The position numbers and the translations under genes are program-made. From NCBI GenBank assembly GCA_043801155.1, contig JAZDMI010000021.1, positions 2,683 through 66,682 on the forward strand: a stretch of 64,000 bases of DNA, read 5' to 3'. Position 1 is the first letter of the stretch; each line of letters opens with the position of its first letter. Source of the DNA: Candidatus Gottesmanbacteria bacterium (lineage in GTDB: Bacteria > Patescibacteriota > Microgenomatia > JAMCYU01). The notes below the pieces were generated by a model that worked only from the letters and a program-made list of their open reading frames with translations, was not told the DNA's origin and made no database searches. Below, in pieces: positions 23,013 to 38,931 of this stretch.

Positions 23013-23313
23013 ATCCCCACACTAATTTCCTATGTTTTATGTATACATTTTAAAAAGCAAAAAAGATGGAAATTTATACACAGGATCAACCAATGATTTA
23101 AAACGCCGTATTGAAGAACATAATTCAGGTTTAGTTTATTCGACGAAAAACCGAAAGCCATTTAAGTTAATATACTATGAAGCATATAGTGATGAAAGTG
23201 ATGCTAGAAATAGAGAGCACAATTTAAAGTTAAGAGCAAAAGCCCTAGGTCAATTAAAAAGAAGGATAAAGGAAAGTCTATCTAAATAATATAAATATAA
23301 TTAGTGTGGGGAT
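23013..23313 (+). mobile_element. 301-bp GIY-YIG mini-cassette bounded by perfect 15-bp terminal inverted repeats
   Basis: ATCCCCACACTAATT (23013-23027) and its exact reverse complement AATTAGTGTGGGGAT (23299-23313). It fills the gap between the rpsJ stop and the next ATG. Confidence 0.6.
23032..23289 (+). CDS. GIY-YIG nuclease superfamily protein (YhbQ/UPF0213-like)
   Basis: FYVYILKS...GNLYTGSTNDLKRRIEEHN. 85 aa. Confidence 0.8.
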   Translation: MFYVYILKSKKDGNLYTGSTNDLKRRIEEHNSGLVYSTKNRKPFKLIYYEAYSDESDARNREHNLKLRAKALGQLKRRIKESLSK

Positions 23314-23983: not shown

Positions 23984-24358
23984 CTACTCTTTGTTTTTTT
24001 CTAATTCGTCTTTAATTTGCGGAGCGATATTATCCAAGAAAATCTGATCAACAAGTTCTTCGGTTATATGAGCTTCTCTTGGCCCAAAATGCTGCATAAA
24101 AACATGATGTTGCCCTATTTTATCCGGACTTAATTGTATTTGACAATAAGTATTGGGGAAGCTGCGGTGGATAAAATTACAAATGATTGTTCCACTTTTA
24201 AGCATAACTGTTTCCCATACAGAAATTTGATTTGGTTTCAAATCTTTATGTTTTGGAACTGGAATATCCTCTCCGACGAGCAGATAAACATCAGGCCAAT
24301 CTAAAGGATTGTACTCATTAAGAGAAATTGGTTGTCTTTCTTGTTTAGAGTTATTCAT
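23984..24358 (-). CDS. hypothetical protein (placed behind the repeated 5' module)
   Basis: 124-aa ORF. Its ATG lies 2 nt after an 11-codon remnant uORF. Confidence 0.5.
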   Translation of the reverse strand: MNNSKQERQPISLNEYNPLDWPDVYLLVGEDIPVPKHKDLKPNQISVWETVMLKSGTIICNFIHRSFPNTYCQIQLSPDKIGQHHVFMQHFGPREAHITEELVDQIFLDNIAPQIKDELEKNKE

Positions 24359-24360
24359 AT

Positions 24361-24455
24361 TTAAACTTGTTCTCGAGCTTCAGGATTTATTGACATAAGA
24401 AAGATATTCTACACATTCAAGTTATAATATACAAATCCTGACTAATTCCCACATC
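24361..24455 (-). repeat. copy 1 of a ~95-nt promoter plus 5'-coding module (includes remnant uORF 24361-24396, MSINPEAREQV*)
   Basis: About 85% identical by eye to 25943-26041. On the minus strand it reads TTGTAT-N17-TAGAAT-N9-ATG. Confidence 0.7.
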
Positions 24456-25198: not shown

Positions 25199-25579
25199 TT
25201 ATAATTTGGGGAAAATTCCCGAGCTCATCACTTCAATAGCTCTAAGAATAGCTTCCCGGGATTCTTTAGTAGGTTGCACGTCGTCAATAATTGAATCATT
25301 TAGTTTGTATTTTGGCAATAATCTTCTGGCCGCGGCAATAAATTGTGTCTCGAATTCCATTGTCATTTCTCTATTAGGAACACTTTCGAAACCCGGAGAA
25401 TTAAGTATTTCCAGATATGTTTTTGCAGTTCTGACATTACCTTTCAGAGCATCTTGATCTAAAAGAAGCGTAGAACTTCCCCAAGGATCCCTTTCTAATA
25501 ACTTTTGGGCGACGACCCGATCATAAACTTCTGCACGTATATTTTTAAATGTTTCACTGGCATTTGACATAAGAGGCAC
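25199..25579 (-). CDS. hypothetical protein, tandem paralog A
   Basis: Shares DP..SS.L.LDQ.AL...EILNS.G.E..P.R...ET..I.A..RL.PKY.L with 25620-25982. Confidence 0.6.
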   Translation of the reverse strand: MPLMSNASETFKNIRAEVYDRVVAQKLLERDPWGSSTLLLDQDALKGNVRTAKTYLEILNSPGFESVPNREMTMEFETQFIAAARRLLPKYKLNDSIIDDVQPTKESREAILRAIEVMSSGIFPKL

Positions 25580-25619: not shown

Positions 25620-25982
25620 TTATTTTTGATTATTAGCTATATATAGAAAAACACCTGCCCGGCAAATTTGGTCTGGTTTGATTTTTTCTAAATAATCCGG
25701 CTTAAGTCCGTATTTTGGTATTAATCTCGAAACGGCATCAATTAAAGATGTCTCACGTTTTAAAAAATCTGCCCGATCAGGAAAGTTCTCATAGCCGGAT
25801 GAATTTAAAATTTCGATAATAGCTTTTGATACCATAACGTGTTCGATTAAGGCAAACTGGTCTAGGATAAGAGAACTTCTATTACAAGGATCCGGAACAA
25901 GGACTGATCTCGCCAGGTAAATATCAGTCATGATCTCAGGTGTTAAACCTAGTTGTTCTAGAGTTTCAGGATTTATTGCCAT
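25620..25982 (-). CDS. hypothetical protein, tandem paralog B
   Basis: See paralog A. TAGAAT-N9-ATG upstream. Confidence 0.6.
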   Translation of the reverse strand: MAINPETLEQLGLTPEIMTDIYLARSVLVPDPCNRSSLILDQFALIEHVMVSKAIIEILNSSGYENFPDRADFLKRETSLIDAVSRLIPKYGLKPDYLEKIKPDQICRAGVFLYIANNQK

Positions 25983-26041
25983 AAGAGAGATATTCTACAT
26001 ATTTGAGTTATAATATACAAATTCTGCCAAATTCCCATCTC
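25943..26041 (-). repeat. copy 2 of the ~95-nt promoter plus 5'-coding module
   Basis: Aligns with 24361-24455 (TTCAGGATTTATTG[AC]CATAAGA.AGATATTCTACA...GTTATAATATACAAAT). Confidence 0.7.
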
Positions 26042-26112: not shown

Positions 26113-26198
26113 CGTTAATTAGACCCATATTACGGTTATATTAACGGTATATTGACAAAATATCGTTAATATGTTAACATATTGTGATGAGATTAACG
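26113..26198 (+). promoter_or_regulatory. Fic promoter with candidate operators
   Basis: TTGACA at 26152-26157. Perfect 16-bp palindrome AATATGTTAACATATT at 26168-26183, abutting the GTG start. CGTTAAT/ATTAACG inverted pairs at 26113-26146 and 26164-26198. Confidence 0.5.
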
Positions 26199-27056
26199 CG
26201 GTTACAGGTGATTTCTGAACTGTTTGCCCAGTACCAGACAAAAAAAATAAACAAAGAATCTCTTCTTTCTATGGTCGATGATGTGGAAATTGCAGAGAGG
26301 GTCTACAACTCCAATGCCATAGAAAACTCGACACTCACCTTGCCCGAAACGGAAAAAATCCTGCTTCAGCTTGAAGTGAATAGGCATATATCGCTTAGAG
26401 AAGTTTTTGAGGCAAAAAATTTAGCCCAAGTCTACAACTATATTAAAAATACTGCCCCTCAAAAACCACTTTCCCTAGATATGATTTTATTACTTCATAA
26501 AATCCTGCTTACCAATATCCGTGATGAAGTTGCAGGACAGTTTCGTACGGGAAACGAAATGGTGCGGGTAGGAAATCACATCGGCATACCCTCGGAATTT
26601 ATAAGTCAAAGGATTCAAGAAATGCTCGTTCAATATAATTCAGACATGGAAATTTCCTTTATTCATAAAATTGGCCGTTTACATGCGGAGTTTGAAAGTA
26701 TTCACCCTTTTATTGACGGAAATGGCAGGATCGGACGAGTTCTTAATAACTATTTACTTATCCGTGAAGGATTTCCTCCGATTATCGTTAGAAATAAAGA
26801 TAAAGAAACTTATTATGATGCCCTGCGTTCATATGACACTTCGCATAATTTTAAACCAATGATGCGCATAGTTGAGTTAGCTGTTTTAGAATCTTTTCAT
26901 AAACGTCTGGCTTACCTTGAGGGACAGCGGATAATTCCTCTTACTGAATATGCGGCTACTCAAAAAAGATCTTTCCATACTCTTTTAAATTCAAGCCGTC
27001 GTCAAACTATTCCTGCTTTTCGCGAGAAAGGCGTCTGGAAAATCGGAGTAAAATAG
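26184..27056 (+). CDS. Fic/DOC family protein (canonical AMPylase-type motif, class II inhibitory helix)
   Basis: HPFIDGNGRIGR, N-terminal SNAIEN (S/TxxxE[G/N]). Confidence 0.85.
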   Translation: MMRLTRLQVISELFAQYQTKKINKESLLSMVDDVEIAERVYNSNAIENSTLTLPETEKILLQLEVNRHISLREVFEAKNLAQVYNYIKNTAPQKPLSLDMILLLHKILLTNIRDEVAGQFRTGNEMVRVGNHIGIPSEFISQRIQEMLVQYNSDMEISFIHKIGRLHAEFESIHPFIDGNGRIGRVLNNYLLIREGFPPIIVRNKDKETYYDALRSYDTSHNFKPMMRIVELAVLESFHKRLAYLEGQRIIPLTEYAATQKRSFHTLLNSSRRQTIPAFREKGVWKIGVK

Positions 27057-27060
27057 GAGA

Positions 27061-27109
27061 AAATCAAAAAAGTCAAAAGAGAGGAAAGAGGAGAGAGAAA
27101 AATTTAATG
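27061..27109 (+). repeat. polypurine intergenic linker, copy A
   Basis: AAATCAAAAAAGTCAAAAGAGAGGAAAGAGGAGAGAGAAAAATTTAATG. About 90% identical to 27576-27626. Confidence 0.75.
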
Positions 27110-27577
27110 AAAATAAATAAACAAATAAAAATCGAAAAACTTACCGAGAAGAGGTTTAATGAAGCGGTTAATTTGGTTTTGGTCGCCAACCTTGATACGC
27201 GGGAAGAAATTGAACATCACCTAAAACATCTGGATGCCCATTATATTGCCCTTGATAATGATAAAATTGTCGGAGTTATCGGTTGGTATCAGGATAATGT
27301 TCATTATGCCAATGAGGCTATGGGTGATAAATTTCCCGGAGAAGAGGCCTACTGGGTGGGATTTTTTACCACTGATAAAAATTACCGGAGGCAGGGAATT
27401 GGTTTTGCCCTGCTTCAAAAATTGGAGCAGGTAATAAAAGAAAAAGGAGAGGATAAAATTTGGGTATCCTCGGTGCCGGAAACAAAAGACTATTATCAAA
27501 GACAAGGATTTGAATTAGTTTTAATGGGATATATCAACGGCAACCAAAAATGTTTTATGGTTAAAAAACTTCAGTAA
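27107..27577 (+). CDS. GNAT family N-acetyltransferase
   Basis: RRQGIGFALLQKLE acetyl-CoA binding motif. 156 aa. Confidence 0.75.
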   Translation: MKINKQIKIEKLTEKRFNEAVNLVLVANLDTREEIEHHLKHLDAHYIALDNDKIVGVIGWYQDNVHYANEAMGDKFPGEEAYWVGFFTTDKNYRRQGIGFALLQKLEQVIKEKGEDKIWVSSVPETKDYYQRQGFELVLMGYINGNQKCFMVKKLQ

Positions 27578-27626
27578 AAATTAAAAAAGTCAGAAGAGAG
27601 AGGAAAGAAGAGAGAGGAAAATTATG
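27576..27626 (+). repeat. polypurine intergenic linker, copy B
   Basis: AAAAATTAAAAAAGTCAGAAGAGAGAGGAAAGAAGAGAGAGGAAAATTATG. Confidence 0.75.
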
Positions 27627-29099
27627 TTTGAACAATCATTTAAAAATATTGATGATATTCTTCACCGGGATGCCGGATGCGCCACGGAATTAGATTATAT
27701 AGAACAAACTTCATGGATTCTATTCTTGAAATACCTTGATGATTTAGAGGAAACAAAAAGGAAAGAAGCGGTTTTAAAAAATAGACAATATGAATATATT
27801 ATTGCTCCTGAATTTCGCTGGAGCGCTTGGGCGGAACCAAAAACGAAAGATGGCAAATTAGATATGAATAAGGCGTTAACCGGAGACGATCTAAGAGACT
27901 TTGTAAATTTAAAACTTTTTCCATATCTTAAGAAATTTAAAATCGACAATAACGAGAATCAAACAACTATTGAATATAAAATTGGAGAAATTTTCAGTGA
28001 GCTAAAAAACAGGATTGAAAGCGGATACAGACTTCGTGAAATTCTTAACATTGTAGATACGATGCATTTTCGAACCGATAGCGATAAACACGAACTCTCA
28101 CATCTTTATGAAGCTAAAATTAAGAACATGGGAAATGCCGGACGAAACGGCGGAGAATATTACACTCCTCGTCCGCTTATTAAAACGATAGTTAAGGTGG
28201 TAATCCCAAAGATTGGCGATACTATATATGATGGAGCCTGCGGATCTGCCGGATTTCTAGTAGAGTCTTTTGATTATCTTAAACAAAGTAAAGAATTATC
28301 TACCTCAGAATCCGTAAAGCTACAAAATAATACTTTTTACGGTAAGGAAATAAAATCACTTGCATATATTATCGGTGTTATGAATATGATTCTTCATGGT
28401 ATTGAAGCGCCGAATATTCTCCATACAAATACGCTTGCTCAAAACATCAATGATATCGAGGAAAAAGATCGGGTTGACGTAATCCTTACGAATCCGCCAT
28501 TTGGTGCAGGAATAGGTCGGGAAATTCAGCAAAATTTTCCGATAAAAACCGGCGAGACGGCATATCTTTTCCTCCAACACTTTATCAAAATGCTCAAAGC
28601 CGGAGGAAAAGCCGGAGTGGTGATTAAAAATACTTTTCTTTCTAATACTGATAACGCATCCGCTTCGCTTCGTAAACGTCTTCTTGAGAGTTGTAATCTT
28701 CACACCGTGCTTGATTTGCCTGGCGGCGTCTTTACGGGAGCAGGTGTAAAAACCGTGGTATTGTTTTTTGAAAAAGGCTCGCCAACCAAAAAAGTATGGT
28801 TCTATCAGTTAAACCTTGACCGCAATCTAGGCAAAGGTAATCCCTTAAGCGAAGCGGATCTATCAGAATTCGTCGAACTGCAAAAAACCAAAGCAGGTAG
28901 CAAAAATTCTTGGAGCGTAGACATAAAAGATATTAATCAAACAACATTTGATTTATCGGTAAAGAATCCAAACAAAGGGAGAGAAGTAACCCTACGCGAA
29001 CCGAAAGAGATTTTGGAGGGAATGAGGAAGCTAGACAAGGAAAGTGAAAATACATTTAAGATTATTAAAAACATATTAAATACTGGAATAAATGAATAA
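27624..29099 (+). CDS. hsdM: type I restriction-modification system, DNA methyltransferase subunit M
   Basis: HsdM N-terminal domain, YYTPR, DGACGSAGFL, NPPFG. Confidence 0.9.
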   Translation: MFEQSFKNIDDILHRDAGCATELDYIEQTSWILFLKYLDDLEETKRKEAVLKNRQYEYIIAPEFRWSAWAEPKTKDGKLDMNKALTGDDLRDFVNLKLFPYLKKFKIDNNENQTTIEYKIGEIFSELKNRIESGYRLREILNIVDTMHFRTDSDKHELSHLYEAKIKNMGNAGRNGGEYYTPRPLIKTIVKVVIPKIGDTIYDGACGSAGFLVESFDYLKQSKELSTSESVKLQNNTFYGKEIKSLAYIIGVMNMILHGIEAPNILHTNTLAQNINDIEEKDRVDVILTNPPFGAGIGREIQQNFPIKTGETAYLFLQHFIKMLKAGGKAGVVIKNTFLSNTDNASASLRKRLLESCNLHTVLDLPGGVFTGAGVKTVVLFFEKGSPTKKVWFYQLNLDRNLGKGNPLSEADLSEFVELQKTKAGSKNSWSVDIKDINQTTFDLSVKNPNKGREVTLREPKEILEGMRKLDKESENTFKIIKNILNTGINE

Positions 29100-29730
29100 T
29101 TTATTAGCCTTGTTAGAGAAATATCAGACCCAAAATATTATCGCCGTCATAGCTTTAATATTGGCTTATTTAGCGTACAGAAAATCGGTTATTGATGAGT
29201 ATAGGAGTTGGTTGGATCTGGCAAAATCTTTCCAACACGAATTGAATTACGCAAAATATTGGATAGGAAATAGTTATGAAAAGATGATGAGTATAGATTG
29301 GTCGAATCCCTCCAGATTTGTTTATCCTCTTACCGCCGAAGCCGCGAAAGCGTTAATTTGGAAAGGACATCCGCCAAAGAGAATATTCCCAGATGATTTT
29401 TTTGATAAATTAGCTATATATAACGAACGTATTCAGGCATTTAACCATTTTTTAATGATTCAAGGAATCAATTATGTAGTGGCGGAAGTTGATAATAAAA
29501 ATGAAAAAATTTCAGAAAAAGCAAAGCATATTAATTATATCATCCATAATGATCTTATAGGTAGCCAGGATAATTATCACTTACACAATCTTTATAATTA
29601 TTTTAGTTGTCAATTGAAAATGATTGAAAAAGCAGATCTTTTGCTGATTCCATGGTATTTTAAATATCCTGAACGAATAGTTCTTGCTACTATTTTTATT
29701 TATATTATAGTTGATTATTTTATTCAGTGA
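29092..29730 (+). CDS. hypothetical membrane protein embedded between hsdM and hsdS
   Basis: 8-nt overlap with hsdM and GTGA overlap with hsdS. TM helices at both termini. I recognise no motif. Confidence 0.55.
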   Translation: MNNLLALLEKYQTQNIIAVIALILAYLAYRKSVIDEYRSWLDLAKSFQHELNYAKYWIGNSYEKMMSIDWSNPSRFVYPLTAEAAKALIWKGHPPKRIFPDDFFDKLAIYNERIQAFNHFLMIQGINYVVAEVDNKNEKISEKAKHINYIIHNDLIGSQDNYHLHNLYNYFSCQLKMIEKADLLLIPWYFKYPERIVLATIFIYIIVDYFIQ

Positions 29731-30884
29731 TTATGAAAACCAACTGGCAAACAAAAAAACTCGAAGATGTAGCAAATGTTCATGGTGGTGGTACTCCACC
29801 AACCAGTCACCCAGAATATTTTCAAGGAAATATAAATTGGTATTCTCCAACTGAGATACCTAAATTCGAAGTTACAACGCTCAAAGAAAGTCAGAAAAAA
29901 ATTTCCGATTCTGCAATAAAATTTACTACTATTTCAAGAACAAATTCAGTCCTTTTAACAAGCAGAGCTACAATTGGTACGGTTGGTATTTTGTCAACTG
30001 CTTCCGGATATAGTCAGGGCATAAAAGGAATCGAACCGGGTCCCGAACTAGACTCGTGGTATCTAGCGCATTGGTTGAGATCAAATAAAGATGAGATTAT
30101 TAATAAGGCTTCTGGTACAACCTTTAAGGAAATTAGTACAAGTGAAATAAAAAAGCTAGAAATTCCTATCCCTCCAATTGCTCAGCAAAAGAAAATTGTT
30201 AATTCCATAGAGAATATCTTGGGAAAAATTGAAAAGGCAAAAGAGAATACAGAGAAAAATCTGCAAAACGCCAAAGCTCTTTTTGAATCATATTTACAAA
30301 GTATTTTTGCGAATCCAGGAAAAGATTGGGAAGAGAAAAGATTAGGTGATGTTTGTATGGTCATTGCTGGTCAATCACCGGAAGGAAAATTCTATAACAA
30401 ATCGGGTAGGGGTTTACCTTTCTATCAGGGAAAAAAAGAATTTGAAGAAAGATATCTTGGGAAACCAACAACATGGACAACAGACATTACCAAAGAGGCG
30501 CAAAATGGTGATATTTTAATGTCAGTTCGAGCCCCTGTGGGACCTATTAATTTTGCAACTCAAAAAATTTGCATCGGTCGGGGTCTTACCGCAATTCGAG
30601 CCGGAAAAGATATTGATGAAAACTTTTTATTTTATAATTTACTCTCAAAAGAAAAAGAAATCATTGGTAATGCCGGAGCTGTATTTGCATCAATCAATAA
30701 ATCCGACATTGAGAGTTTAAAATTATTTTTACCATCTCTTCCCGAACAAAAATCTATTGATATAAAACTTGACACAATTTATGCCGAAACAAAAAAACTG
30801 GAAGCAATTTATAAACAAAAATTAGCTGATTTAGAAGAGCTAAAAAAATCGGTTTTGAGAAAAGCATTTAAAGGAGAATTGTAA
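29727..30884 (+). CDS. hsdS: type I restriction-modification system, specificity subunit S
   Basis: Two target-recognition halves separated by coiled-coil spacers (IAQQKKIV..., LPEQKSI...). 385 aa. Confidence 0.85.
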   Translation: MIMKTNWQTKKLEDVANVHGGGTPPTSHPEYFQGNINWYSPTEIPKFEVTTLKESQKKISDSAIKFTTISRTNSVLLTSRATIGTVGILSTASGYSQGIKGIEPGPELDSWYLAHWLRSNKDEIINKASGTTFKEISTSEIKKLEIPIPPIAQQKKIVNSIENILGKIEKAKENTEKNLQNAKALFESYLQSIFANPGKDWEEKRLGDVCMVIAGQSPEGKFYNKSGRGLPFYQGKKEFEERYLGKPTTWTTDITKEAQNGDILMSVRAPVGPINFATQKICIGRGLTAIRAGKDIDENFLFYNLLSKEKEIIGNAGAVFASINKSDIESLKLFLPSLPEQKSIDIKLDTIYAETKKLEAIYKQKLADLEELKKSVLRKAFKGEL

Positions 30885-30886
30885 TT

Positions 30887-31606
30887 ATGAAATATATAAA
30901 AAAGCTTAATATGGTTTGTTTTAACTTACTGGAACTGAAGACGCTATATAAGACTGACAAAGTAATAAAAATTCTTATAGAAGCAAATAAAACAAGGTGT
31001 AATATCGTTAATTCATCTAAAGAACAATCTAAAAAGATCGTAGATTCAGTCGTGAAAGGAGATTTAAAACAAAAGGAGGAAATTGAAATATTCTCGGCGT
31101 TAAGCTTATGTGCCTTATTTTTCGAGAATGATAGTTTTATAGGTTTCGTTTTGAAGGACGGCTATGATGTAGGAAAAAACCCAATACAAACATTAGAAGG
31201 TTTGAAAAAGGCTGCGAAAGAAGATACTCTTACTGATTTTGCAATTATCACCAAAAGTGGAATGCGAGAATTTCAGCTAAAACAATTTTATAGACAAAAA
31301 CTGGAGACGGAAGACCTTTTTAACTTTATAAAAGAAAAAATTGAACATTATGGTGGTAATTTTGGTACCACTGCTTTGTTATTCTCGGTTAGAGGTGATG
31401 GAATAGGACCTTGTCAAAGCAATATTTCTTTTAAAGAAATTCACGAGAGGCTTTGCAAACTTAATTTAGACAGAAATGGATTAATTTTGATTTGGTATAA
31501 TGATGGCAACAAAAAACAGGTGATAATTGAAGTTTATCCTGATTTATCGGCATGCCAAAAAGAAACAGGTATTCACGATCAAACAAAAAATACCCTATAT
31601 AATTAG
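30887..31606 (+). CDS. hypothetical protein embedded between hsdS and hsdR (weak D...QxK nuclease-like pattern)
   Basis: 2-nt gap after hsdS. TDFAIITKSGMREFQLK resembles D-x13-Q-x-K of the Mrr-type PD-(D/E)xK motif. This is speculative. Confidence 0.5.
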   Translation: MKYIKKLNMVCFNLLELKTLYKTDKVIKILIEANKTRCNIVNSSKEQSKKIVDSVVKGDLKQKEEIEIFSALSLCALFFENDSFIGFVLKDGYDVGKNPIQTLEGLKKAAKEDTLTDFAIITKSGMREFQLKQFYRQKLETEDLFNFIKEKIEHYGGNFGTTALLFSVRGDGIGPCQSNISFKEIHERLCKLNLDRNGLILIWYNDGNKKQVIIEVYPDLSACQKETGIHDQTKNTLYN

Positions 31607-31617
31607 ATCTAAAAATT

Positions 31618-33972
31618 ATGAACGAAGCAGAAACACGAGCCGAATATATTGATCCAAAACTGAAAGCTAGCGGTTGGGGAGAAGTTGAGGGATCAAAAGT
31701 ATTACGGGAATATCGTATCACCGAAGGACGGATTTTGGTTGGTGGAATACGTGCTAAACCGGAAATTGCTGATTATATCCTCGTATACAAAAACCAAAAA
31801 CTGGCAATTATTGAAGCAAAGCCGGATGAATCTGCCGTTACAGAGGGTGTCGCTCAAGCAAAAGTCTACGCCCAGAAGATGCAGATTGATTATACCTACT
31901 CAACCAACGGTAAAGAAATTTATCAAATTTCCATGAAATCCGGGAAAGAAGAGATTGTAGATGCGTTTTCGACCCCGGATGAGTTATGGAAAAAAGTGTA
32001 TTCAGATCAAAATGAATGGAAAGAGAAATTTGCTTCAATTCCTCTTGAGGGAGAATTAGGGAAACGATACTACCAGGAATCAGCCATTAATAACGTTATG
32101 AATGCGATTGCTGAAGATAAGAAACGAGTGCTACTTACTATGGCAACAGGAACCGGTAAGACAGCGATTGCATTTCAGACCTCTTGGAAGCTATATCAAA
32201 CGCGTTGGACTTTACAACGTGATGGAAATCGGCGTCCGAGAATTCTTTTTCTTGCCGATAGAAATATTCTTGCGGATCAAGCGTTTAATACCTTCGGTGC
32301 TTTTCCGGAAGATGCATTAGTTCGAATTAATCCTCTTGATATTCGGAGGAAGGGATTAGTTCCGATGAACGGAAGTATCTTTTTCACTATTTTTCAAACA
32401 TTTATGAGCGGACCGCAGGGAACACCTTATTTTGGTGATTATCCTCCTGATTTTTTTGATTTTATTGTCATTGATGAATGTCATCGTGGAGGAGCTAATG
32501 ATGAGGGAAACTGGCGCGGAATTTTAGAGTATTTTTCTCCAGCAGTTCAGCTTGGATTAACGGCCACACCAAAAAGAAGAGATAACGTAGATACATATAG
32601 ATATTTTGGCGATCCGGTATATATTTATTCACTTAAGGAAGGGATTAATGATGGATTTTTGACACCTTTTAAGGTGAAACGTATCCAAACAACCCTTGAT
32701 GAATATGTGTACACATCTGACGACCAAGTAATTGAAGGAGAAGTTGAAGCCGGTAAGGTATATAAAGAGCCTGATTTTAATAAAATCATAGAAATAAAAG
32801 AGCGCGAGGCAAAACGAGTTCAATTGTTGCTTGAGAATATAAACCAGAACGAGAAAACAATTGTTTTTTGTGCAACCCAGGATCATGCCCTAGCGGTACG
32901 GGATCTGGTAAATCAATATAAAAAAAGTAAAGATCCTTTTTACTGCGTCCGGGTAACGGCTAATGACGGAGCGCGTGGCGAGCAATATTTACGAGAATTT
33001 CAGGATAATGAAAAGACGATTCCTACGATATTAACCACTTCACAAAAGCTTTCTACTGGTGTTGATGCCAGAAATATCCGTAATATCGTTCTTATGCGTC
33101 CGGTTAATACCATGATCGAATTTAAACAGATTATTGGGCGTGGAACTCGGTTATTTGACGGAAAAGAATATTTTACAATCATTGATTTTGTTGATGCGTA
33201 TAAACTTTTTTTAGATCCTGAATGGGACGGCGAACCGATAGCGAATATTTGCCCAAAGTGTAACCAGGATCCCTGTATTTGCGAAAAAACTCCGCCGAAA
33301 GTTTGTCCTATTTGCGGGCAAAGACCGTGTATTTGTATTAGAGAACCAAGAATTTGTCCAATATGTGGAAAATTCCCATGTGAATGTGAATCAAAAAAGA
33401 AAATAAAAATAAAACTGCGCGATGGCAAAGAGCGAGAGATTCAACATATGATTTCTACTTCTTTTTGGGGGGCAGATGGTAAACCGATGTCGTCGGAGGA
33501 GTTTATTCAAAGCCTTTATGGAGTATTGCCGGATCTGTTTAAAAACGAAGAGGAACTTCGGAATATATGGTCAAATCCTGTGACAAGGAAACGATTTTTG
33601 GAACGGCTTTTTGATATTGGCATTGATTTAGAACAGATAGAAAATATTACCAAGATTGTTAATGCTGAACAATGTGATTTTTATGATGTGCTCTTGTATC
33701 TTGCATTTAGCAATCCACTCATTACACGTAAACAGCGGGCTGAGAAGAATAAAAATCATATTTTTGAAAATTTGTCTGATAAAGAAGGAGAATTTCTCAA
33801 CTTCGTACTGAAAAAATATGAAGAAACCGGATTTGAAGAACTTGACGAGGAGAAATTACCAATACTTCTGAATCTAAAATACCACGCTATTGCAGACGCA
33901 GAAGAAGCACTAGGAAATGTAGAAAATATTAGAGCAACATTCTTAGGATTTCAGGAAGATCTCTATAGCTAG
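31618..33972 (+). CDS. hsdR: type I restriction enzyme, R subunit (EcoEI/IB-like C-terminal region)
   Basis: HSDR_N-like MNEAETRAEYIDPKL, D..EAK nuclease core, MATGTGKT, DECHRG, C-terminal EcoEI_R_C-like region. Three CPxC-x3-PCxC repeats. Confidence 0.9.
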   Translation: MNEAETRAEYIDPKLKASGWGEVEGSKVLREYRITEGRILVGGIRAKPEIADYILVYKNQKLAIIEAKPDESAVTEGVAQAKVYAQKMQIDYTYSTNGKEIYQISMKSGKEEIVDAFSTPDELWKKVYSDQNEWKEKFASIPLEGELGKRYYQESAINNVMNAIAEDKKRVLLTMATGTGKTAIAFQTSWKLYQTRWTLQRDGNRRPRILFLADRNILADQAFNTFGAFPEDALVRINPLDIRRKGLVPMNGSIFFTIFQTFMSGPQGTPYFGDYPPDFFDFIVIDECHRGGANDEGNWRGILEYFSPAVQLGLTATPKRRDNVDTYRYFGDPVYIYSLKEGINDGFLTPFKVKRIQTTLDEYVYTSDDQVIEGEVEAGKVYKEPDFNKIIEIKEREAKRVQLLLENINQNEKTIVFCATQDHALAVRDLVNQYKKSKDPFYCVRVTANDGARGEQYLREFQDNEKTIPTILTTSQKLSTGVDARNIRNIVLMRPVNTMIEFKQIIGRGTRLFDGKEYFTIIDFVDAYKLFLDPEWDGEPIANICPKCNQDPCICEKTPPKVCPICGQRPCICIREPRICPICGKFPCECESKKKIKIKLRDGKEREIQHMISTSFWGADGKPMSSEEFIQSLYGVLPDLFKNEEELRNIWSNPVTRKRFLERLFDIGIDLEQIENITKIVNAEQCDFYDVLLYLAFSNPLITRKQRAEKNKNHIFENLSDKEGEFLNFVLKKYEETGFEELDEEKLPILLNLKYHAIADAEEALGNVENIRATFLGFQEDLYS

Positions 33973-33976
33973 TTTT

Positions 33977-34005
33977 TTGCATTTTCTGTCCTTCCTAATT
34001 CAATC
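33977..34005 (+). promoter_or_regulatory. promoter-like module J1 (TTGCATTTTCTG class, weak -10)
   Basis: TTGCAT at 33977-33982. No good -10 at N17. Confidence 0.35.
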
Positions 34006-34036: not shown

Positions 34037-34110
34037 TGTTATAATAATAGTGGTTTAAGCGGTCTGCGTTTGGCAGACGACTATTGCAGCCTATCAGGGC
34101 TGCTTTTTTT
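34037..34110 (+). ncRNA. candidate small RNA or attenuator leader (extended -10 promoter, two hairpins, terminator)
   Basis: TGtTATAAT at 34037-34045. GTCTGC/GCAGAC hairpin at 34062-34078. GCAGCC-tatcag-GGCTGC plus T7 at 34086-34110. The RBS and ATG of the next ORF follow directly. Confidence 0.4.
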
Positions 34111-34902: not shown

Positions 34903-34931
34903 AGGTGGACTAGGTTCACACCTTCTTCCTT

Positions 34932-34960
34932 TTGCCTTTTTGGGACGGCTGATTTAAATC
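34932..34960 (+). promoter_or_regulatory. promoter-like module J2a
   Basis: TTGCCT-TTTTGGGACGGCTGATT-TAAATC. Confidence 0.5.
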
Positions 34961-34966
34961 ACATTT

Positions 34967-34995
34967 TTGCATTTTCGTTTCTTCTGACCTAAACT
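34967..34995 (+). promoter_or_regulatory. promoter-like module J2b
   Basis: TTGCAT-N17-TAAACT, 10 nt before ATG 35006. Confidence 0.6.
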
Positions 34996-35242: not shown

Positions 35243-35260
35243 TAAATTTTGTAAATTTCT

Positions 35261-35289
35261 TTGCCTTTTTGAGTATGATGATCTAAACT
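35261..35289 (+). promoter_or_regulatory. promoter-like module J3
   Basis: TTGCCT-N17-TAAACT, 9 nt before GTG 35299. Confidence 0.6.
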
Positions 35290-35298
35290 GGGATTAGA

Positions 35299-35814
35299 GT
35301 GGATATTGATATTAGTGGTCTTTTCAGAAAATCTTTCATTGACTCCTTACCCACCTTATTTTATTTATTAATTCCAATAATAATAATTTCAGGTCTGGTT
35401 ATTGCCATAAAAATTGGTTATTATTTTTACCGCCAGCATATCTATAATAAGGCCGGGTTGGATAAAATTGATAAAATGCCCGGTTACGTTTTTGAAGAAT
35501 ACCTTACAAATCTGTTTGCCCGGTTAGGTTACAGAGTAAATCATATTGGTAAGTTTGGAGATTTTGGGGGAGATTTAATTATCGAAAAAGATGGAATGAA
35601 AACATTAGTTCAGGCGAAAAGATCAAGTGATAGAATAAGAGAGAAAGCAATTCAGGAAGCCGTAACTGCAAAAGAGTACTACCATTGTGATAAAGCTATG
35701 GTAGTTACTAATAATTATTTTTATAAACATGCGTGGACGTTGGGCAAGGGAACAAATATAGACTTATGGGCAAGAAATAAATTGGCTGAAGTTATCTCTC
35801 AGAATATAAATTAA
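35299..35814 (+). CDS. membrane-anchored Mrr-like restriction endonuclease domain protein
   Basis: N-terminal TM. FEEYLTNLFARLGY...GDFGGDLIIEKDGMKTLVQAKRS (D-x12-QAK, Mrr_cat-like). Confidence 0.7.
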   Translation: MDIDISGLFRKSFIDSLPTLFYLLIPIIIISGLVIAIKIGYYFYRQHIYNKAGLDKIDKMPGYVFEEYLTNLFARLGYRVNHIGKFGDFGGDLIIEKDGMKTLVQAKRSSDRIREKAIQEAVTAKEYYHCDKAMVVTNNYFYKHAWTLGKGTNIDLWARNKLAEVISQNIN

Positions 35815-35819
35815 TTCTT

Positions 35820-35848
35820 TTGCCTTTTTGGGTCTGCTGATTTAAACT
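35820..35848 (+). promoter_or_regulatory. promoter-like module J4
   Basis: TTGCCT-TTTTGGGTCTGCTGATT-TAAACT. Confidence 0.6.
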
Positions 35849-36584: not shown

Positions 36585-36596
36585 ATTTTATAATTT

Positions 36597-36625
36597 TTGC
36601 ATTTTCTGCCATTTTGATCTAGACT
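36597..36625 (+). promoter_or_regulatory. promoter-like module J5
   Basis: TTGCAT-TTTCTGCCATTTTGATC-TAGACT. RBS AAGAGGA before ATG 36647. Confidence 0.6.
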
Positions 36626-36646: not shown

Positions 36647-37519
36647 ATGACTTTTAATCCAAATGCTGTTTTCATTTCTCCTTCATCCATCTCTGATTTT
36701 AAAACATGTCCACAAACTTATTATTATCGGAATGTCTATAGAAATCCGAAGACTGGATTAAAAATACAAATAATTAATCCAAAACTAGCGCTTGGTGCAA
36801 CAGTGCATGATATATTAGCTCAATTCCTACACACCCAGGGAATAGAAAAAACTAAAGATCAATTACTCAATATCCTTCAGAGATATTGGGGACAGATTAC
36901 TGGTGAAAAAGGAGGATTTAAAACAGAAGAGGAAGAAAAACAATACAAAGAAAGGGCATCAAAAATGTTGGATATTTTTTGGGGAAATAACCATTTTAGG
37001 GAGGTACAACCGGTAAAACTACCCGATTTCCCAAAGGTATATTTTGATGACGATTTAATTCTCACTGGAAAACTTGACTGGATTGAGCTAGAGACAGAAA
37101 ATAAATATCACATCATTGACTTTAAAACTGGAGAAAACGAAGAACGAAGCGATTCTATGCAATTACCTATTTATGCCGTTCTTGCTTCAAATATTTTAAA
37201 AACCTCTGAAATAAAAGCAAGCTATTGGTATCTTGATAGAGATGCCGACTTGAAAAAATTCGATCTGCCCGATTTAAAAGAAACAACAGAAAAACTTAAA
37301 AAAATTGGTTATGTAATTAAAAATAGTCGGTTAACAAATTCTTTTAAATGCAGTTCGGGATACGAGTCGTGTTGGTCTTGTAAAGATTTGCTATCCATTA
37401 GCAATGGAAAGGGTAAACTTGTTTCTGTTGATTACAATCGTAAACAAGAAGTTTATATAATTCCTCCAACAGAAGATAAGCCTATATTAGAAAAACCTAT
37501 TGATGACATTCCTTTCTAA
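36647..37519 (+). CDS. PD-(D/E)XK nuclease, Cas4/RecB-like with 4-Cys cluster signature
   Basis: N-terminal FKTCPQ Cys. IIDFKTG core. QLPIYA. C-terminal C-x6-C-x2-C (CSSGYESCWSC). Confidence 0.7.
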   Translation: MTFNPNAVFISPSSISDFKTCPQTYYYRNVYRNPKTGLKIQIINPKLALGATVHDILAQFLHTQGIEKTKDQLLNILQRYWGQITGEKGGFKTEEEEKQYKERASKMLDIFWGNNHFREVQPVKLPDFPKVYFDDDLILTGKLDWIELETENKYHIIDFKTGENEERSDSMQLPIYAVLASNILKTSEIKASYWYLDRDADLKKFDLPDLKETTEKLKKIGYVIKNSRLTNSFKCSSGYESCWSCKDLLSISNGKGKLVSVDYNRKQEVYIIPPTEDKPILEKPIDDIPF

Positions 37520-37547
37520 AGAATATGTTTATATCTTCTTCTTCTTT

Positions 37548-37576
37548 TTGCATTTTCTGACTTTCTGATTTAGACT
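37548..37576 (+). promoter_or_regulatory. promoter-like module J6
   Basis: TTGCAT-TTTCTGACTTTCTGATT-TAGACT. Confidence 0.6.
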
Positions 37577-37828: not shown

Positions 37829-37837
37829 AACCTAAAA

Positions 37838-37866
37838 TTGCCTTTTTGGGTTTACTTTTTGAAACT
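37838..37866 (+). promoter_or_regulatory. promoter-like module J7, pointing into the 3' end of a minus-strand gene
   Basis: TTGCCT-TTTTGGGTTTACTTTTT-GAAACT. The next gene, 37872-38795, is on the minus strand. Confidence 0.4.
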
Positions 37867-37871
37867 GTTGA

Positions 37872-38795
37872 TTATTCAAACAAGCAGGCGACACCTAGAC
37901 AGTCTTTGCCGGTATAAACAGCCAAAACTTTGCCGGCCTCGCAGTAGTCAATGGCTTTTGGGCTTAGATTATATCTAGCGGCTAATAAATCAGTCATTTC
38001 CTGGGCTCTTCCCTCATTGTTGGTATGAGTAACCAGGGCTCTTTTGAGAACTTTTCCTTTTGCCTTTTCTTTTTCGATTAGTTCAATTATCTTTTCCGGA
38101 ATGCCTTTTTTACCTCGAGATAGAAGTTTAGGAATCAGCTTTGCTTCTTGTAGGTCAACAATAGGATACACTTTAAAAGCCATAGCCAAAGCTGCGACCG
38201 CTGTTCGTACGCCTTCCAGTCCTTCTTTAGAAATTCGCCTGCCCGCACTTTTTAGAAAATAAGCGGCATCGGACACGGCAATAAAAAGTTTAATATTTTG
38301 TGCCTTTAGCTCAAGTTTTCTGGATATTTCCTCAAAAGGTATATCTTGTTTTAAAAGCTCAATTGCTTCAGGAATGAGAATGCCTGCTCCGACAGAAACC
38401 GATTGGGTGTCCAAAACTTGAATTTTCATGTCGGGGTACTTACGTTTTATCGCTTCAGTCGCAGCGGTAGCACTATTAACCCCACAAGTTAAACGTACAT
38501 CCGAGAGGATAGTAAAGATTTCATTAATGCCAAAATGAGTAGCCAAACTTTCATAAGCCTTTTCGAACTGACCAAGATTAGCACCTGACGTATTAAATAA
38601 TTCCGCTGATTTTCCAAGACGATCATAAAAATCTGGTGTTTTAATTATAAAATCGGGTAATGGTTTTTCTTCGATAGTAATCCAGCTAGGAAGAGAAATA
38701 ACTCGTATCCCTGACTCGTTGCGAAAGTCAGCAGCCCGATGAGGGTCTAAAGAAGTAGTACTATCAGTTATCAGGGCTCGTTCCGGAGTAGCCAT
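37872..38795 (-). CDS. DegV family (fatty-acid binding) protein
   Basis: N-terminal ALITDSTTSLDP and overall DegV-like length and pattern. Confidence 0.55.
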   Translation of the reverse strand: MATPERALITDSTTSLDPHRAADFRNESGIRVISLPSWITIEEKPLPDFIIKTPDFYDRLGKSAELFNTSGANLGQFEKAYESLATHFGINEIFTILSDVRLTCGVNSATAATEAIKRKYPDMKIQVLDTQSVSVGAGILIPEAIELLKQDIPFEEISRKLELKAQNIKLFIAVSDAAYFLKSAGRRISKEGLEGVRTAVAALAMAFKVYPIVDLQEAKLIPKLLSRGKKGIPEKIIELIEKEKAKGKVLKRALVTHTNNEGRAQEMTDLLAARYNLSPKAIDYCEAGKVLAVYTGKDCLGVACLFE

Positions 38796-38869: not shown

Positions 38870-38894
38870 ACCCCGTACTAGTCGGTACGGGACT
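38870..38894 (+). repeat. junction repeat with perfect hairpin CCCGTAC-tagtcg-GTACGGG
   Basis: 21 of 24 positions match 43198-43222, where the hairpin is degraded. Confidence 0.6.
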
Positions 38895-38902
38895 TCTTAA
38901 AA

Positions 38903-38931
38903 TTGCCTTTTTGGGTCTTCGATAATAATCA
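38903..38931 (+). promoter_or_regulatory. promoter-like module J8
   Basis: TTGCCT-TTTTGGGTCTTCGATAA-TAATCA. Confidence 0.45.

What the first reader, a model, noticed from the sequence alone, without database searches (positions are those of the whole stretch)
26184..33972. Type I R-M operon expanded to seven co-oriented genes: Fic, GNAT, HsdM, orf212(TM), HsdS, orf239, HsdR
Seen in sequence: all seven genes are on one strand with gaps of 50, 46, -8, -4, 2 and 11 nt, and I saw no terminator until 34086-34110. Two unknown ORFs are translationally coupled inside the hsdM-hsdS-hsdR core. The first is a 212-aa protein with TM helices at both ends. The second is a 239-aa protein with a weak D-x13-QxK nuclease-like pattern. 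Fic (canonical HPFIDGNGRIGR with an SNAIEN inhibitory helix) and a GNAT precede hsdM. Established knowledge: genes embedded in type I R-M loci (for example the PrrC anticodon nuclease) are often back-up abortive-infection effectors guarded by the R-M complex, and Fic and GNAT enzymes both occur as toxins. Inference: orf212 and orf239, and perhaps Fic and GNAT, may form an undescribed R-M-linked second-line defence module.
Basis: partly seen in the sequence, partly recalled or inferred. Interest (0 to 1): 0.65.

Follow-up and report, generated by a model that had tools for sequence, protein, structure and literature searches.

The report
Restriction operon carrying two embedded cargo genes
A DNA-restriction (type I R-M) operon in an uncultured candidate-phyla bacterium carries two extra genes from undescribed families, a likely nuclease and a membrane-anchored helical protein, in two slots where related operons carry other defence genes, which is a new example of a known pattern and not a new kind of system.

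Summary
Seven co-oriented ORFs lie at the stated coordinates with the stated gaps. The Fic motifs, GNAT and an EcoAI-family (type IB) hsdM/S/R are all present, and orf212 and orf239 match no family in Pfam, PADLOC, NCBIfam, PHROGs or PDB sequences. The same R-M backbone (HsdM 71-79% and HsdR 72-82% identical) occurs in five metagenomic versions with two variable cargo slots, M|S and S|R. orf212 and orf239 are independent cargo that co-occur only here. Fic and GNAT are not conserved neighbours, and the Fic matches the already catalogued PADLOC candidate PDC-S04. orf239 belongs to an unannotated family of at least 185 clusters with invariant E...D-x12-(Q/E)xK, so it is a probable Mrr-like PD-(D/E)xK nuclease. 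It occupies the S|R slot in 4 of 5 backbones and elsewhere sits beside GmrSD-like, HEPN, M78/DUF4411 and caspase genes. A patch of 82-92% nucleotide identity over orf239 inside 45-78% flanks suggests recent cassette exchange. orf212 is a small family, whose named sources are all candidate-phyla bacteria, of four-helix-bundle proteins anchored by both termini. It sits next to a DNA methyltransferase or hsdS gene in 7 of 11 contexts, across unrelated R-M types. Any abortive-infection or guard function is untested. Verdict: a new member of a known kind ("defence genes embedded in R-M"), of moderate interest.

The parts
26152..26180 (+). Best sigma-70-like promoter match of the region (TTGACA-17-TAACAT, with TG). 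It ends 3 nt before the Fic GTG and 6 nt before ATG 26187.
   Evidence: 10 of 12 matches, top of the list; sequence. This is a consensus match only, and the total number of promoter-like hits is below the shuffle expectation.
26184..27056 (+). Class II-type Fic protein (290 aa) with an N-terminal SNAIEN inhibitory motif and an HPFIDGNGRIGR active site. It is a neighbour of the R-M operon and not a conserved part of it.
   Evidence: PADLOC PDC-S04 3.7e-36 and SoFic 2.1e-29. The NCBIfam SoFic equivalog cut-off is not reached (41 against 550 bits).
27107..27577 (+). GNAT acetyltransferase (156 aa), flanked on both sides by the same purine-rich leader (27075-27104 and 27594-27623).
   Evidence: PF00583, 4.5e-14; no PADLOC hit; repeat D9, 90% identity.
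27624..29099 (+). hsdM, the type I methyltransferase subunit (491 aa, complete).
   Evidence: PADLOC MTase_I model positions 2-490 of 491, 1.4e-158.
29092..29730 (+). orf212, the cargo in the M|S slot. It is a four-helix bundle with hydrophobic helices at both ends. It overlaps the hsdM stop by 8 nt and the hsdS start by 4 nt.
   Evidence: (pLDDT 83.7). No hit in Pfam, PADLOC, NCBIfam, PHROGs or PDB sequences.
29727..30884 (+). hsdS, the specificity subunit (385 aa, two target-recognition domains). The real start may be ATG 29733.
30887..31606 (+). orf239, the cargo in the S|R slot. It is a predicted Mrr-like PD-(D/E)xK nuclease with E67, D117, Q130 and K132, and has an AAAGGAGAA ribosome-binding site upstream.
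30780..31680 (+). Patch of 82-92% nucleotide identity to locus L010 covering orf239, inside flanks of 45-78% identity. Interpreted as a recently exchanged cassette.
   Evidence: sliding identity; orf239 dS 0.37 while flanking hsdM and hsdR are saturated at synonymous sites.
31618..33972 (+). hsdR, an EcoAI/EcoEI-family (type IB) restriction subunit (784 aa) with an intact D-x13-ExK nuclease motif.
   Evidence: NF046051, 809.6 bits against a cut-off of 550; ResIII, Helicase_C, EcoEI_R_C; ADYILVYKNQKLAIIEAK.
34086..34110 (+). Intrinsic-terminator-like hairpin (7 pairs, 5 of them G-C) followed by T7.

Best explanation
This is an EcoAI-family (type IB) restriction-modification operon whose conserved backbone has two insertion slots, one between hsdM and hsdS and one between hsdS and hsdR. 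In different lineages these slots hold different, unrelated cargo genes. Here the M|S slot holds orf212 and the S|R slot holds orf239, and the two are independent of each other. orf239 most likely encodes a stand-alone Mg-dependent PD-(D/E)xK (Mrr-like, D-x12-QxK) endonuclease. It would be co-expressed with HsdR and add a second nuclease-based defence activity, comparable to the embedded type IV system TgvAB or, by position only, to PrrC. It is exchanged between R-M loci as a cassette. orf212 most likely encodes a protein held in the membrane by both termini, with its four-helix bundle in the cytoplasm. Its function depends on a DNA methyltransferase/specificity module. My best guess is a membrane-acting effector or a membrane tether for the R-M complex. 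Fic (PDC-S04-like) and GNAT are adjacent island genes, possibly co-transcribed, and are not part of the conserved unit. What is shown: gene order, the family assignments of the five known genes, the conserved embedding, the residue conservation and the identity patch. What is inferred: nuclease activity, membrane topology, defence function and co-transcription.
For: The backbone is shared. HsdM is 71-80% and HsdR 72-82% identical in L003-6, L010, L029/30 and L034/35. Slot contents differ: orf212 or orf212h, OLD+DUF2130+orf173, orf448 or nothing in M|S, and orf239 or orf239h (84, 37 and 36% identical), orf87, or orf208 plus orf239h in S|R. The orf239 family has 185 representatives at 50% identity. 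E67 and D117 are 100% conserved, K132 is 99%, and position 130 is Q in 90% and E in 10%. In the AF2 model E67 lies in the helix before beta-1, D117 at the start of beta-2, QxK in beta-3, and a helix and beta-4 follow, with pLDDT 70-81 in that core. The spacing is the same as in the window's own Pfam-verified Mrr_cat protein (GGDLIIEKDGMKTLVQAKR against LTDFAIITKSGMREFQLKQ). The top Foldseek hits, though not significant, are XPF/ERCC4, Mus81 and AF1548 folds. Other orf239h contexts are GmrSD_N/AlbA_2 - 239h - HEPN_Cthe2314, M78 plus DUF4411/PIN, and caspase. Cassette exchange is supported. orf212 has a confident helical-bundle model and terminal hydrophobic helices with K/R on the bundle side. 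Its TM1 and juxtamembrane segment (A21, A25, A28, Y29, R30) stay conserved even at 27-31% identity. Seven of 11 distinct contexts are directly next to hsdM, hsdS or an N6_N4 methyltransferase, spanning type IB, a HindI-like type I family, a fused R-M enzyme and a stand-alone N6_N4 methyltransferase. orf212h stays 47-50% identical where the partner HsdM is only 25-31% identical. Embedded defence genes are an established phenomenon (Payne et al. 2024; TgvAB; PrrC).
Confidence: 0.6

Rival explanations
1. One reading: all seven genes form one integrated system, in which Fic, GNAT, orf212 and orf239 act as toxins or effectors held in check by the HsdMSR complex and released when restriction is blocked.
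For: All seven genes share one strand with short or negative gaps, a single strong promoter-like site upstream and one strong terminator downstream. Fic matches a PADLOC defence candidate. orf239 occupies the same hsdS-X-hsdR position as prrC.
Against: The four extra genes co-occur only in this window. Sister loci with the same backbone have different upstream genes and different slot contents. GNAT has no defence-model hit and no antitoxin-like partner. The orf239 block has a different evolutionary history from its flanks.
Confidence: 0.07
2. orf212, orf239 or both are accessory subunits or regulators of the R-M enzyme itself, not separate defence effectors. Examples would be a membrane tether that places the methyltransferase/restriction complex at the site of DNA entry, or a factor that modulates restriction activity during establishment of the system.
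For: orf212 is translationally coupled to hsdM and hsdS by overlaps in several lineages. It diverges no faster than its R-M partners: 67% identity against 72-79% for HsdR and HsdM in L003-6, and 47-50% where HsdM is only 25-31% identical. It sits next to hsdS or a methyltransferase in most contexts. orf239h is present in 4 of 5 versions of one backbone.
Against: The same backbone functions without orf212 (L010, L029, L034) and without orf239 (L003-6). orf239h also occurs far from any R-M system. orf212h partners with R-M enzymes that are only 25-31% identical or of a different class, which argues against a specific subunit interface.
Confidence: 0.2
3. orf239 is a selfish mobile nuclease gene, similar to a homing endonuclease, that invades the hsdS-hsdR junction. 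Its presence would reflect its own spread and not a benefit to host defence.
For: A sharply bounded patch of high nucleotide identity covers just the gene, with low dS relative to the flanks. The gene sits at the same junction in divergent forms of 36-84% identity. PD-(D/E)xK homing endonucleases exist (general knowledge).
Against: The family also sits in other tightly packed defence cassettes. There are no relatives in phage or plasmid records. It lacks intron or intein features and has its own ribosome-binding site. dN/dS of 0.21 indicates purifying selection.
Confidence: 0.1

Closest known systems
Defence genes embedded in type I R-M, BREX, DISARM and Hma systems ('guilt-by-embedding', Payne et al. 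2024, bioRxiv 10.1101/2024.01.29.577857)
   Same: The extra genes are same-strand genes nested between hsd genes. That study reports 3,231 embedded protein families, more than half of them without an assigned function, with embedded genes co-oriented with the host system in 96.7% of cases. The window Fic matches PDC-S04, a PADLOC phage-defence-candidate (PDC) model; Payne et al. added their PDC set to PADLOC.
   Different: orf212 and orf239 match none of the 5,027 PADLOC v2.0.0 models, even through diverse family members. That survey used RefSeq genomes, whereas these families come from metagenome assemblies, and those with a named source are all candidate-phyla bacteria.
PrrC anticodon nuclease in the EcoprrI type IC locus
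   Same: A single gene embedded in a type I R-M locus and found almost exclusively in that context. By general knowledge prrC lies between hsdS and hsdR, the same slot as orf239.
   Different: By general knowledge PrrC is an ABC-ATPase fused to a tRNA anticodon nuclease. orf239 has no PrrC or P-loop-family hit, carries a PD-(D/E)xK-type motif, sits in a type IB and not a type IC locus, and also occurs outside R-M loci.
TgvAB, the type I-embedded GmrSD-like type IV restriction system of Vibrio cholerae VPI-2 (PMC11411939)
   Same: It is a nuclease-based second system nested in a type I R-M operon and proposed to complement it. GmrSD-family genes lie beside orf239 homologs in L031-33 and L034/35.
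   Different: TgvAB consists of two DUF262/DUF1524-type proteins. orf239 is a single protein of about 235 aa with no GmrSD domains.
Mrr_cat (PF04471) type IV restriction-endonuclease catalytic domain
   Same: orf239 shares the D-x12-QxK catalytic-motif spacing and the local hydrophobic pattern of the window's own Mrr_cat protein at 35299-35814, and has an upstream conserved acidic residue in a helix.
   Different: There is no HMM or profile-profile support. The N-terminal ~80 residues (one strand plus three helices) are unrelated to Mrr.
Four-helix-bundle sensor modules flanked by two TM helices (chemoreceptor and histidine-kinase ligand-binding domains)
   Different: orf212 has no signalling domain after TM2. 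The charge distribution suggests the bundle is cytoplasmic and not periplasmic. The matches are generic helical bundles, and designed proteins score equally well.

Membership tests
Type IB (EcoAI/EcoEI-family) restriction-modification system | HsdR reaches the curated equivalog score of the EcoAI/FtnUII model and has the EcoEI_R_C domain. | tested here: met
   NF046051, 809.6 bits against a cut-off of 550, model positions 1-768 of 768. PF08463, 1.6e-22.
Type IB (EcoAI/EcoEI-family) restriction-modification system | Complete HsdM (N6_Mtase plus HsdM_N) and an HsdS with two target-recognition domains in the same operon. | tested here: met
   HsdM matches the MTase_I model end to end, and HsdS has two Methylase_S stretches.
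Type IB (EcoAI/EcoEI-family) restriction-modification system | Sequence-specific methylation and ATP-dependent restriction activity. | not testable with these tools
   This needs methylome or restriction assays. The HsdR nuclease motif D-x13-ExK and the helicase domains are intact.
PD-(D/E)xK / Mrr_cat nuclease superfamily (orf239) | Conserved catalytic D...(D/E/Q)xK with an upstream acidic residue. | tested here: met
   E67 100%, D117 100%, position 130 Q 90% / E 10%, and K132 99% in 119 representatives. Confirmed on 111 sequences.
PD-(D/E)xK / Mrr_cat nuclease superfamily (orf239) | An alpha-beta-beta-beta-alpha-beta core fold supported by a significant structural match. | tested here: inconclusive
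PD-(D/E)xK / Mrr_cat nuclease superfamily (orf239) | A sequence-profile match to a curated family model. | tested here: not met
   No Pfam hit for the protein, for 111 members or for the consensus sequences. hhalign to Mrr_cat, PDDEXK_1, NucS and HsdR-N gives probability below 1%.
PrrC / RloC anticodon nucleases (orf239 or orf212) | An N-terminal ABC-ATPase domain plus a C-terminal anticodon-nuclease domain, and a match to the PrrC models. | tested here: not met
   Neither ORF gives any PADLOC, Pfam or NCBIfam hit. The proteins are 212 and 239 aa and match no P-loop NTPase family.
HEPN RNases (orf212) | An Rx4-6H motif conserved across the family within an all-alpha bundle. | tested here: not met
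   R113 is invariant, but H119 is replaced by Q, S or A in the four distant homologs. No HEPN family hit was found.
Fic AMP-transferases, class II (autoinhibited) | The HxFx(D/E)GNGRxxR active-site motif and an (S/T)xxxE(G/N) inhibitory motif N-terminal to the core. | tested here: met
   HPFIDGNGRIGR is at residues 174-185 and SNAIEN at 43-48. PF02661, 1.5e-19.
SoFic / PDC-S04 defence candidates (Fic) | A match to the PADLOC models and to NCBI's SoFic equivalog. | tested here: inconclusive
   PADLOC PDC-S04 3.7e-36 and SoFic 2.1e-29, but the NCBIfam SoFic equivalog scores only 41 bits against a cut-off of 550. Anti-phage activity is untested.
GNAT toxins of type II toxin-antitoxin systems (TacT/AtaT type) | An adjacent small antitoxin gene and similarity to the toxin families. 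| tested here: not met
   There is no ORF in the 50-nt and 46-nt gaps flanking the gene, no PADLOC hit, and only generic GNAT matches.

The most novel reading that the evidence does not exclude
orf212 defines a new class of R-M partner. It would be a protein anchored in the membrane by both ends whose cytoplasmic four-helix bundle couples DNA methyltransferase/specificity modules of several unrelated R-M types to the membrane in candidate-phyla bacteria. It would act either as an obligate R-M-dependent membrane-disrupting suicide effector (a membrane analogue of PrrC) or as a tether that positions restriction at the site of DNA entry. In parallel, orf239 would define a new stand-alone Mrr-like nuclease defence family that moves as a cassette into the hsdS-hsdR junction.
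Probability: 0.2. Interest if true: 0.7.

Novelty: new member of a known kind. Interest (0 to 1): 0.45.

Why it matters
Genes nested in R-M operons have repeatedly turned out to be working defence systems, for example PrrC, TgvAB, and the seven embedded systems that Payne et al. confirmed experimentally. This locus adds two families that the current catalogues (PADLOC 2.0, Pfam, NCBIfam, PHROGs) do not contain, and the members with a named source come from candidate-phyla bacteria, whose immunity is poorly known. The five-way comparison of one backbone gives a clean natural experiment. It shows two defined cargo slots, cargo swapped while the backbone is kept, and a recombination patch that marks the unit of exchange. 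orf212 is the more unusual of the two, because it stays with methyltransferase/specificity genes across unrelated R-M types and is better conserved than those partners. Both genes are short and could be tested by expression in a standard host.

Tried and rejected
1. HEPN RNase for orf212 was rejected. I noticed R113-x5-H119, but H119 is not conserved in distant homologs.
2. orf212 as a split-off piece of HsdM or HsdS was rejected, because both subunits are full length against their models.
3. orf208 of L029 as an orf212 relative was rejected (hmmsearch score 2 bits).
4. A recurrent small partner ORF for orf212 was rejected. orf150/154 occur in one lineage only, 'orf105' of L007 is a split hsdS N-terminus, and orf87 is unrelated.
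5. orf239h supplying a missing nuclease to the GmrSD_N/AlbA_2 protein of L031 was dropped, because that protein has its own borderline HNH_4 match.
6. Searches that led nowhere:
   - PDB sequence profile searches for both families.
   - A member-wise Pfam scan of 111 orf239 relatives and consensus-sequence Pfam scans.
   - The viral-contig scan for orf212. For orf239 the alignments were too diverse for that tool.
   - Phage and plasmid tblastn for orf239.
   - The first hhalign run, which was invalid because of a wrong flag and was redone.
   - The afdb50 fold library, which was unavailable.
   - A search for solved relatives of the window Mrr_cat protein to build a template profile, which found none.
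   - Rfam and tRNA scans of the whole window, which found nothing.
   - The purine-rich leader, which is not shared by sister loci.

Full report
OBSERVATION. Family scans identify a Fic protein (PF02661, 1.5e-19), a generic GNAT (PF00583), HsdM (PADLOC MTase_I, 1.4e-158, end to end), HsdS (two Methylase_S stretches) and HsdR. The HsdR reaches NCBI's EcoAI/FtnUII equivalog model at 809.6 bits against a cut-off of 550, so the system is type IB. The Fic motifs SNAIEN (residues 43-48) and HPFIDGNGRIGR (174-185) are present. The best promoter-like site of the region lies at 26152-26180, directly upstream of Fic. The only convincing terminator-like hairpin is at 34086-34103 plus a T-run. These are consensus matches, so a single transcription unit is plausible but not shown. 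The window comes from a Candidatus Gottesmanbacteria metagenome-assembled genome, where the two unknown genes carry locus tags V1858_02825 and V1858_02835. Neither orf212 nor orf239 hits anything in Pfam, PADLOC 2.0, NCBIfam or PHROGs. Both are real genes, with conserved homologs and dN/dS of 0.10 and 0.21.

ONE BACKBONE, TWO CARGO SLOTS. Context look-ups recovered four other versions of the same R-M backbone, with HsdM 71-80% and HsdR 72-82% identical to the window's.
- L003-6 read NucS-like - M - orf212h (67%) - S - orf87 - R.
- L010 reads RadC - M - orf173 + DUF2130 + OLD-family nuclease - S - orf239h (84%) - R.
- L029/30 read M - orf448 - S - orf208 + orf239h (37%) - R.
- L034/35 read HTH-M78 - M - S - orf239h (36%) - R - GmrSD.
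The M|S and S|R junctions are therefore variable slots. orf212 and orf239 co-occur only in the window. The genes upstream of hsdM differ in every version, so Fic and GNAT are not conserved partners of the R-M system. Between the window and L010, nucleotide identity is 45-70% in hsdS and about 67-83% in hsdR, but 82-92% across about 30780-31680, which is orf239 plus its junctions. In agreement, orf239 has dS 0.37 while the flanking genes are saturated at synonymous sites. This points to recent exchange of the cargo cassette by recombination through the conserved hsdS 3' end and hsdR 5' end.

orf239. An exhaustive profile search found 185 representatives at 50% identity, nearly all single-domain proteins of 220-250 aa. 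In 119 full-length members E67 and D117 are invariant, K132 is 99% conserved, and position 130 is Q in 90% and E in 10%. Y155, N205 and P218 are also nearly invariant. The AlphaFold model is weak overall (pLDDT 60). Its core, at pLDDT 70-81, has the order helix(63-78) - strand(84-89) - strand(118-122) - strand(125-132) - helix(141-155) - strand(164-169). That order places E67, D117 and Q130-x-K132 where a PD-(D/E)xK nuclease has its catalytic residues. The D-x12-QxK spacing and the local pattern match the window's own Pfam-verified Mrr_cat protein at 35299-35814.

- Four are the S|R slot of this type IB backbone (the window, L010, L029/30 and L034/35).
- One is a tight HTH - orf90 - GmrSD_N/HNH/AlbA_2 - 239h - HEPN_Cthe2314 cassette, in an island that also holds HsdM and AAA_15/AAA_13 ATPases.
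- One is followed by an HTH-M78 peptidase and a DUF4411/PIN gene.
- One follows a caspase-like gene.
- One shows nothing defence-like.
There are no relatives in phage or plasmid records. The best reading is a stand-alone Mrr-like endonuclease that serves as an embedded second defence activity. Its target, whether modified DNA or self or phage nucleic acid during abortive infection, is unknown.

The orf212 contexts fall into 11 distinct lineages.
- M - 212 - S in the window and in L003-6.
- S - 212 after a fused HSDR_N_2/N6_Mtase enzyme in a Saccharibacteria genome (L001).
- 212 directly upstream of a split hsdS, after R - M (L007/8).
- M - 212 - orf150 - S - R in a HindI-like type I family (L018-20).
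- S - 257-aa homolog (L022).
- N6_N4 methyltransferase - 256-aa homolog, after a TnsA-like endonuclease-domain protein (L024).
- A 269-aa homolog 2 kb from another N6_N4 methyltransferase (L025/26).
- Reverse transcriptase - PDDEXK_1 - 260-aa homolog (L021).
- Two short contigs with no R-M gene visible (L014, L017).
Seven of the 11 are directly beside a DNA methyltransferase or specificity gene, which is far beyond chance for genes that make up well under 1% of a genome (my inference, not a computed statistic). orf212h stays 47-50% identical where the partner HsdM is only 25-31% identical. It therefore moves between, or outlasts, different R-M systems, which argues against a lineage-specific subunit interface. 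The mechanism remains open. I favour a membrane-acting effector or a membrane tether that depends on a methyltransferase/specificity module, with low confidence.

Fic AND GNAT. The Fic has the class II layout, with the inhibitory motif N-terminal to the active site, and matches PADLOC PDC-S04 (3.7e-36) and SoFic (2.1e-29). It does not reach NCBI's SoFic equivalog cut-off. PDC-S04 belongs to the PADLOC phage-defence-candidate set; Payne et al. derived their candidates by the embedding criterion and added them to PADLOC, so a Fic next to type I R-M is a catalogued pattern. The GNAT is generic, has no defence-model hit and no antitoxin-like neighbour. Both sit in a small island of about 14 kb (about 23-37.5 kb, GC 0.32-0.36 against about 0.38-0.42 on the flanks). 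The island also holds GIY-YIG, MazG-like, NYN, NUDIX, a TM-Mrr_cat protein and a Cas4-like PDDEXK_1 protein.

COMPARISON WITH WHAT IS KNOWN. Nesting of defence genes inside type I R-M operons is well established. Examples are PrrC in EcoprrI, TgvAB in Vibrio cholerae VPI-2 and RloF in Campylobacter, and the systematic 'guilt-by-embedding' survey of Payne et al. That survey reports 3,231 embedded families, more than half unassigned, and 145 candidates added to PADLOC. This locus works like those cases. It is not a member of the PrrC, GmrSD, HEPN or any PADLOC family, because those membership tests failed. The new elements are the two protein families themselves, the five-way comparison that defines two cargo slots on one backbone, the recombination patch, and the near-obligate link of orf212 to methyltransferase/specificity genes.

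VERDICT. This is a new member of a known kind. Interest is 0.45. It is solid and testable, and orf212 is unusual, but it is one of thousands of unassigned embedded families and nothing here has been shown functionally.

Noticed in passing
window 27060-27106 and 27578-27623: Both intergenic gaps flanking the GNAT gene consist of nearly the same purine-rich element, AAAAAAGTCA(A/G)AAGAGAG(AG)GAAAGA(G/A)GAGAGAG(A/G)AAAAT; the 30-nt core is 90% identical. GNAT is therefore bracketed by direct repeats of a leader or RBS-like sequence. Sister loci lack this leader upstream of hsdM, so it may mark a cassette insertion or leader duplication.
   Followed up: partly
window 33974-33994, 34929-34958, 34964-34995, 35258-35289, 35817-35846, 36594-36625, 37545-37576, 37835-37864, 38050-38072, 38893-38915: An intergenic motif of about 30 nt recurs ten times downstream of hsdR: TTTTTGC(A/C)TTTT...CTGAT(C/T)TA(A/G)ACT. 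Most copies lie upstream of + strand genes. It looks like a shared promoter (-35 TTGCAT/TTGCCT, -10 TAAACT/TAGACT) or a regulator-binding site.
   Followed up: no
window 23984-24358(-), 25199-25579(-), 25620-25982(-); repeats 24367-24451 and 25953-26037: Three small minus-strand genes of 120-126 aa with no family hit lie just upstream of Fic. Two are clear paralogs. They share an 85-nt upstream and 5' region (88% identical) and a 23-nt box present in three copies.
   Followed up: no
window 23013-23313: A stand-alone GIY-YIG gene (23032-23289) lies immediately after the ribosomal protein S10 gene. It is bracketed by a 31-nt inverted repeat (23013-23043 and 23283-23313, 77% complementary) and may be a small mobile element.
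   Followed up: no
window 26175-26189: The -10 box of the best promoter-like site ends at 26180. A start about 7 nt downstream would fall on ATG 26187, so the Fic mRNA may be leaderless and the protein may start at the second codon of the listed ORF.
   Followed up: no
window 35299-35814 and 36647-37519: A 171-aa protein with an N-terminal TM helix fused to an Mrr_cat restriction-endonuclease domain, and a Cas4-like PDDEXK_1 protein, lie downstream of the R-M operon in the same low-GC island, together with MazG-like, NYN and NUDIX genes.
   Followed up: partly
L010 2151-5157: In a sister locus the hsdM|hsdS slot holds a three-gene cassette: a zinc-ribbon coiled-coil protein (173 aa), DUF2130 (236 aa) and an OLD-family AAA_15 + TOPRIM nuclease (574 aa).
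   Followed up: no
L031 5344-9534 (same arrangement in L032 and L033): A tightly packed cassette reads HTH - orf90 - GmrSD_N/HNH_4(weak)/AlbA_2 (711 aa) - orf239 homolog - HEPN_Cthe2314 (274 aa), with 8-nt gaps. It may be a multi-gene system in which the orf239 family takes part.
   Followed up: partly
L021 2-2639: A reverse transcriptase (RVT_1), a PDDEXK_1 nuclease and a distant 260-aa orf212 homolog lie in a row on one strand. This is the only orf212-family context that is defence-like but lacks a methyltransferase.
   Followed up: no
L020 4318-7253: The hsdR of this HindI-like type I system is split into two overlapping ORFs (441 and 586 aa). This could be a frameshift, a pseudogene or an assembly error.
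   Followed up: no
protein P0165: One 546-aa representative matches the orf239 profile in six separate stretches (best stretch at profile positions 67-135). This suggests a protein with tandem copies of the putative nuclease core.
   Followed up: no
L034 (contig GC 0.44, SLH-domain proteins nearby) against the window (GC about 0.35): The same type IB backbone (HsdM 79% and HsdR 72% identical) occurs in a genome that does not look like a candidate-phyla bacterium, which implies horizontal spread of this R-M lineage across distant hosts.
   Followed up: no
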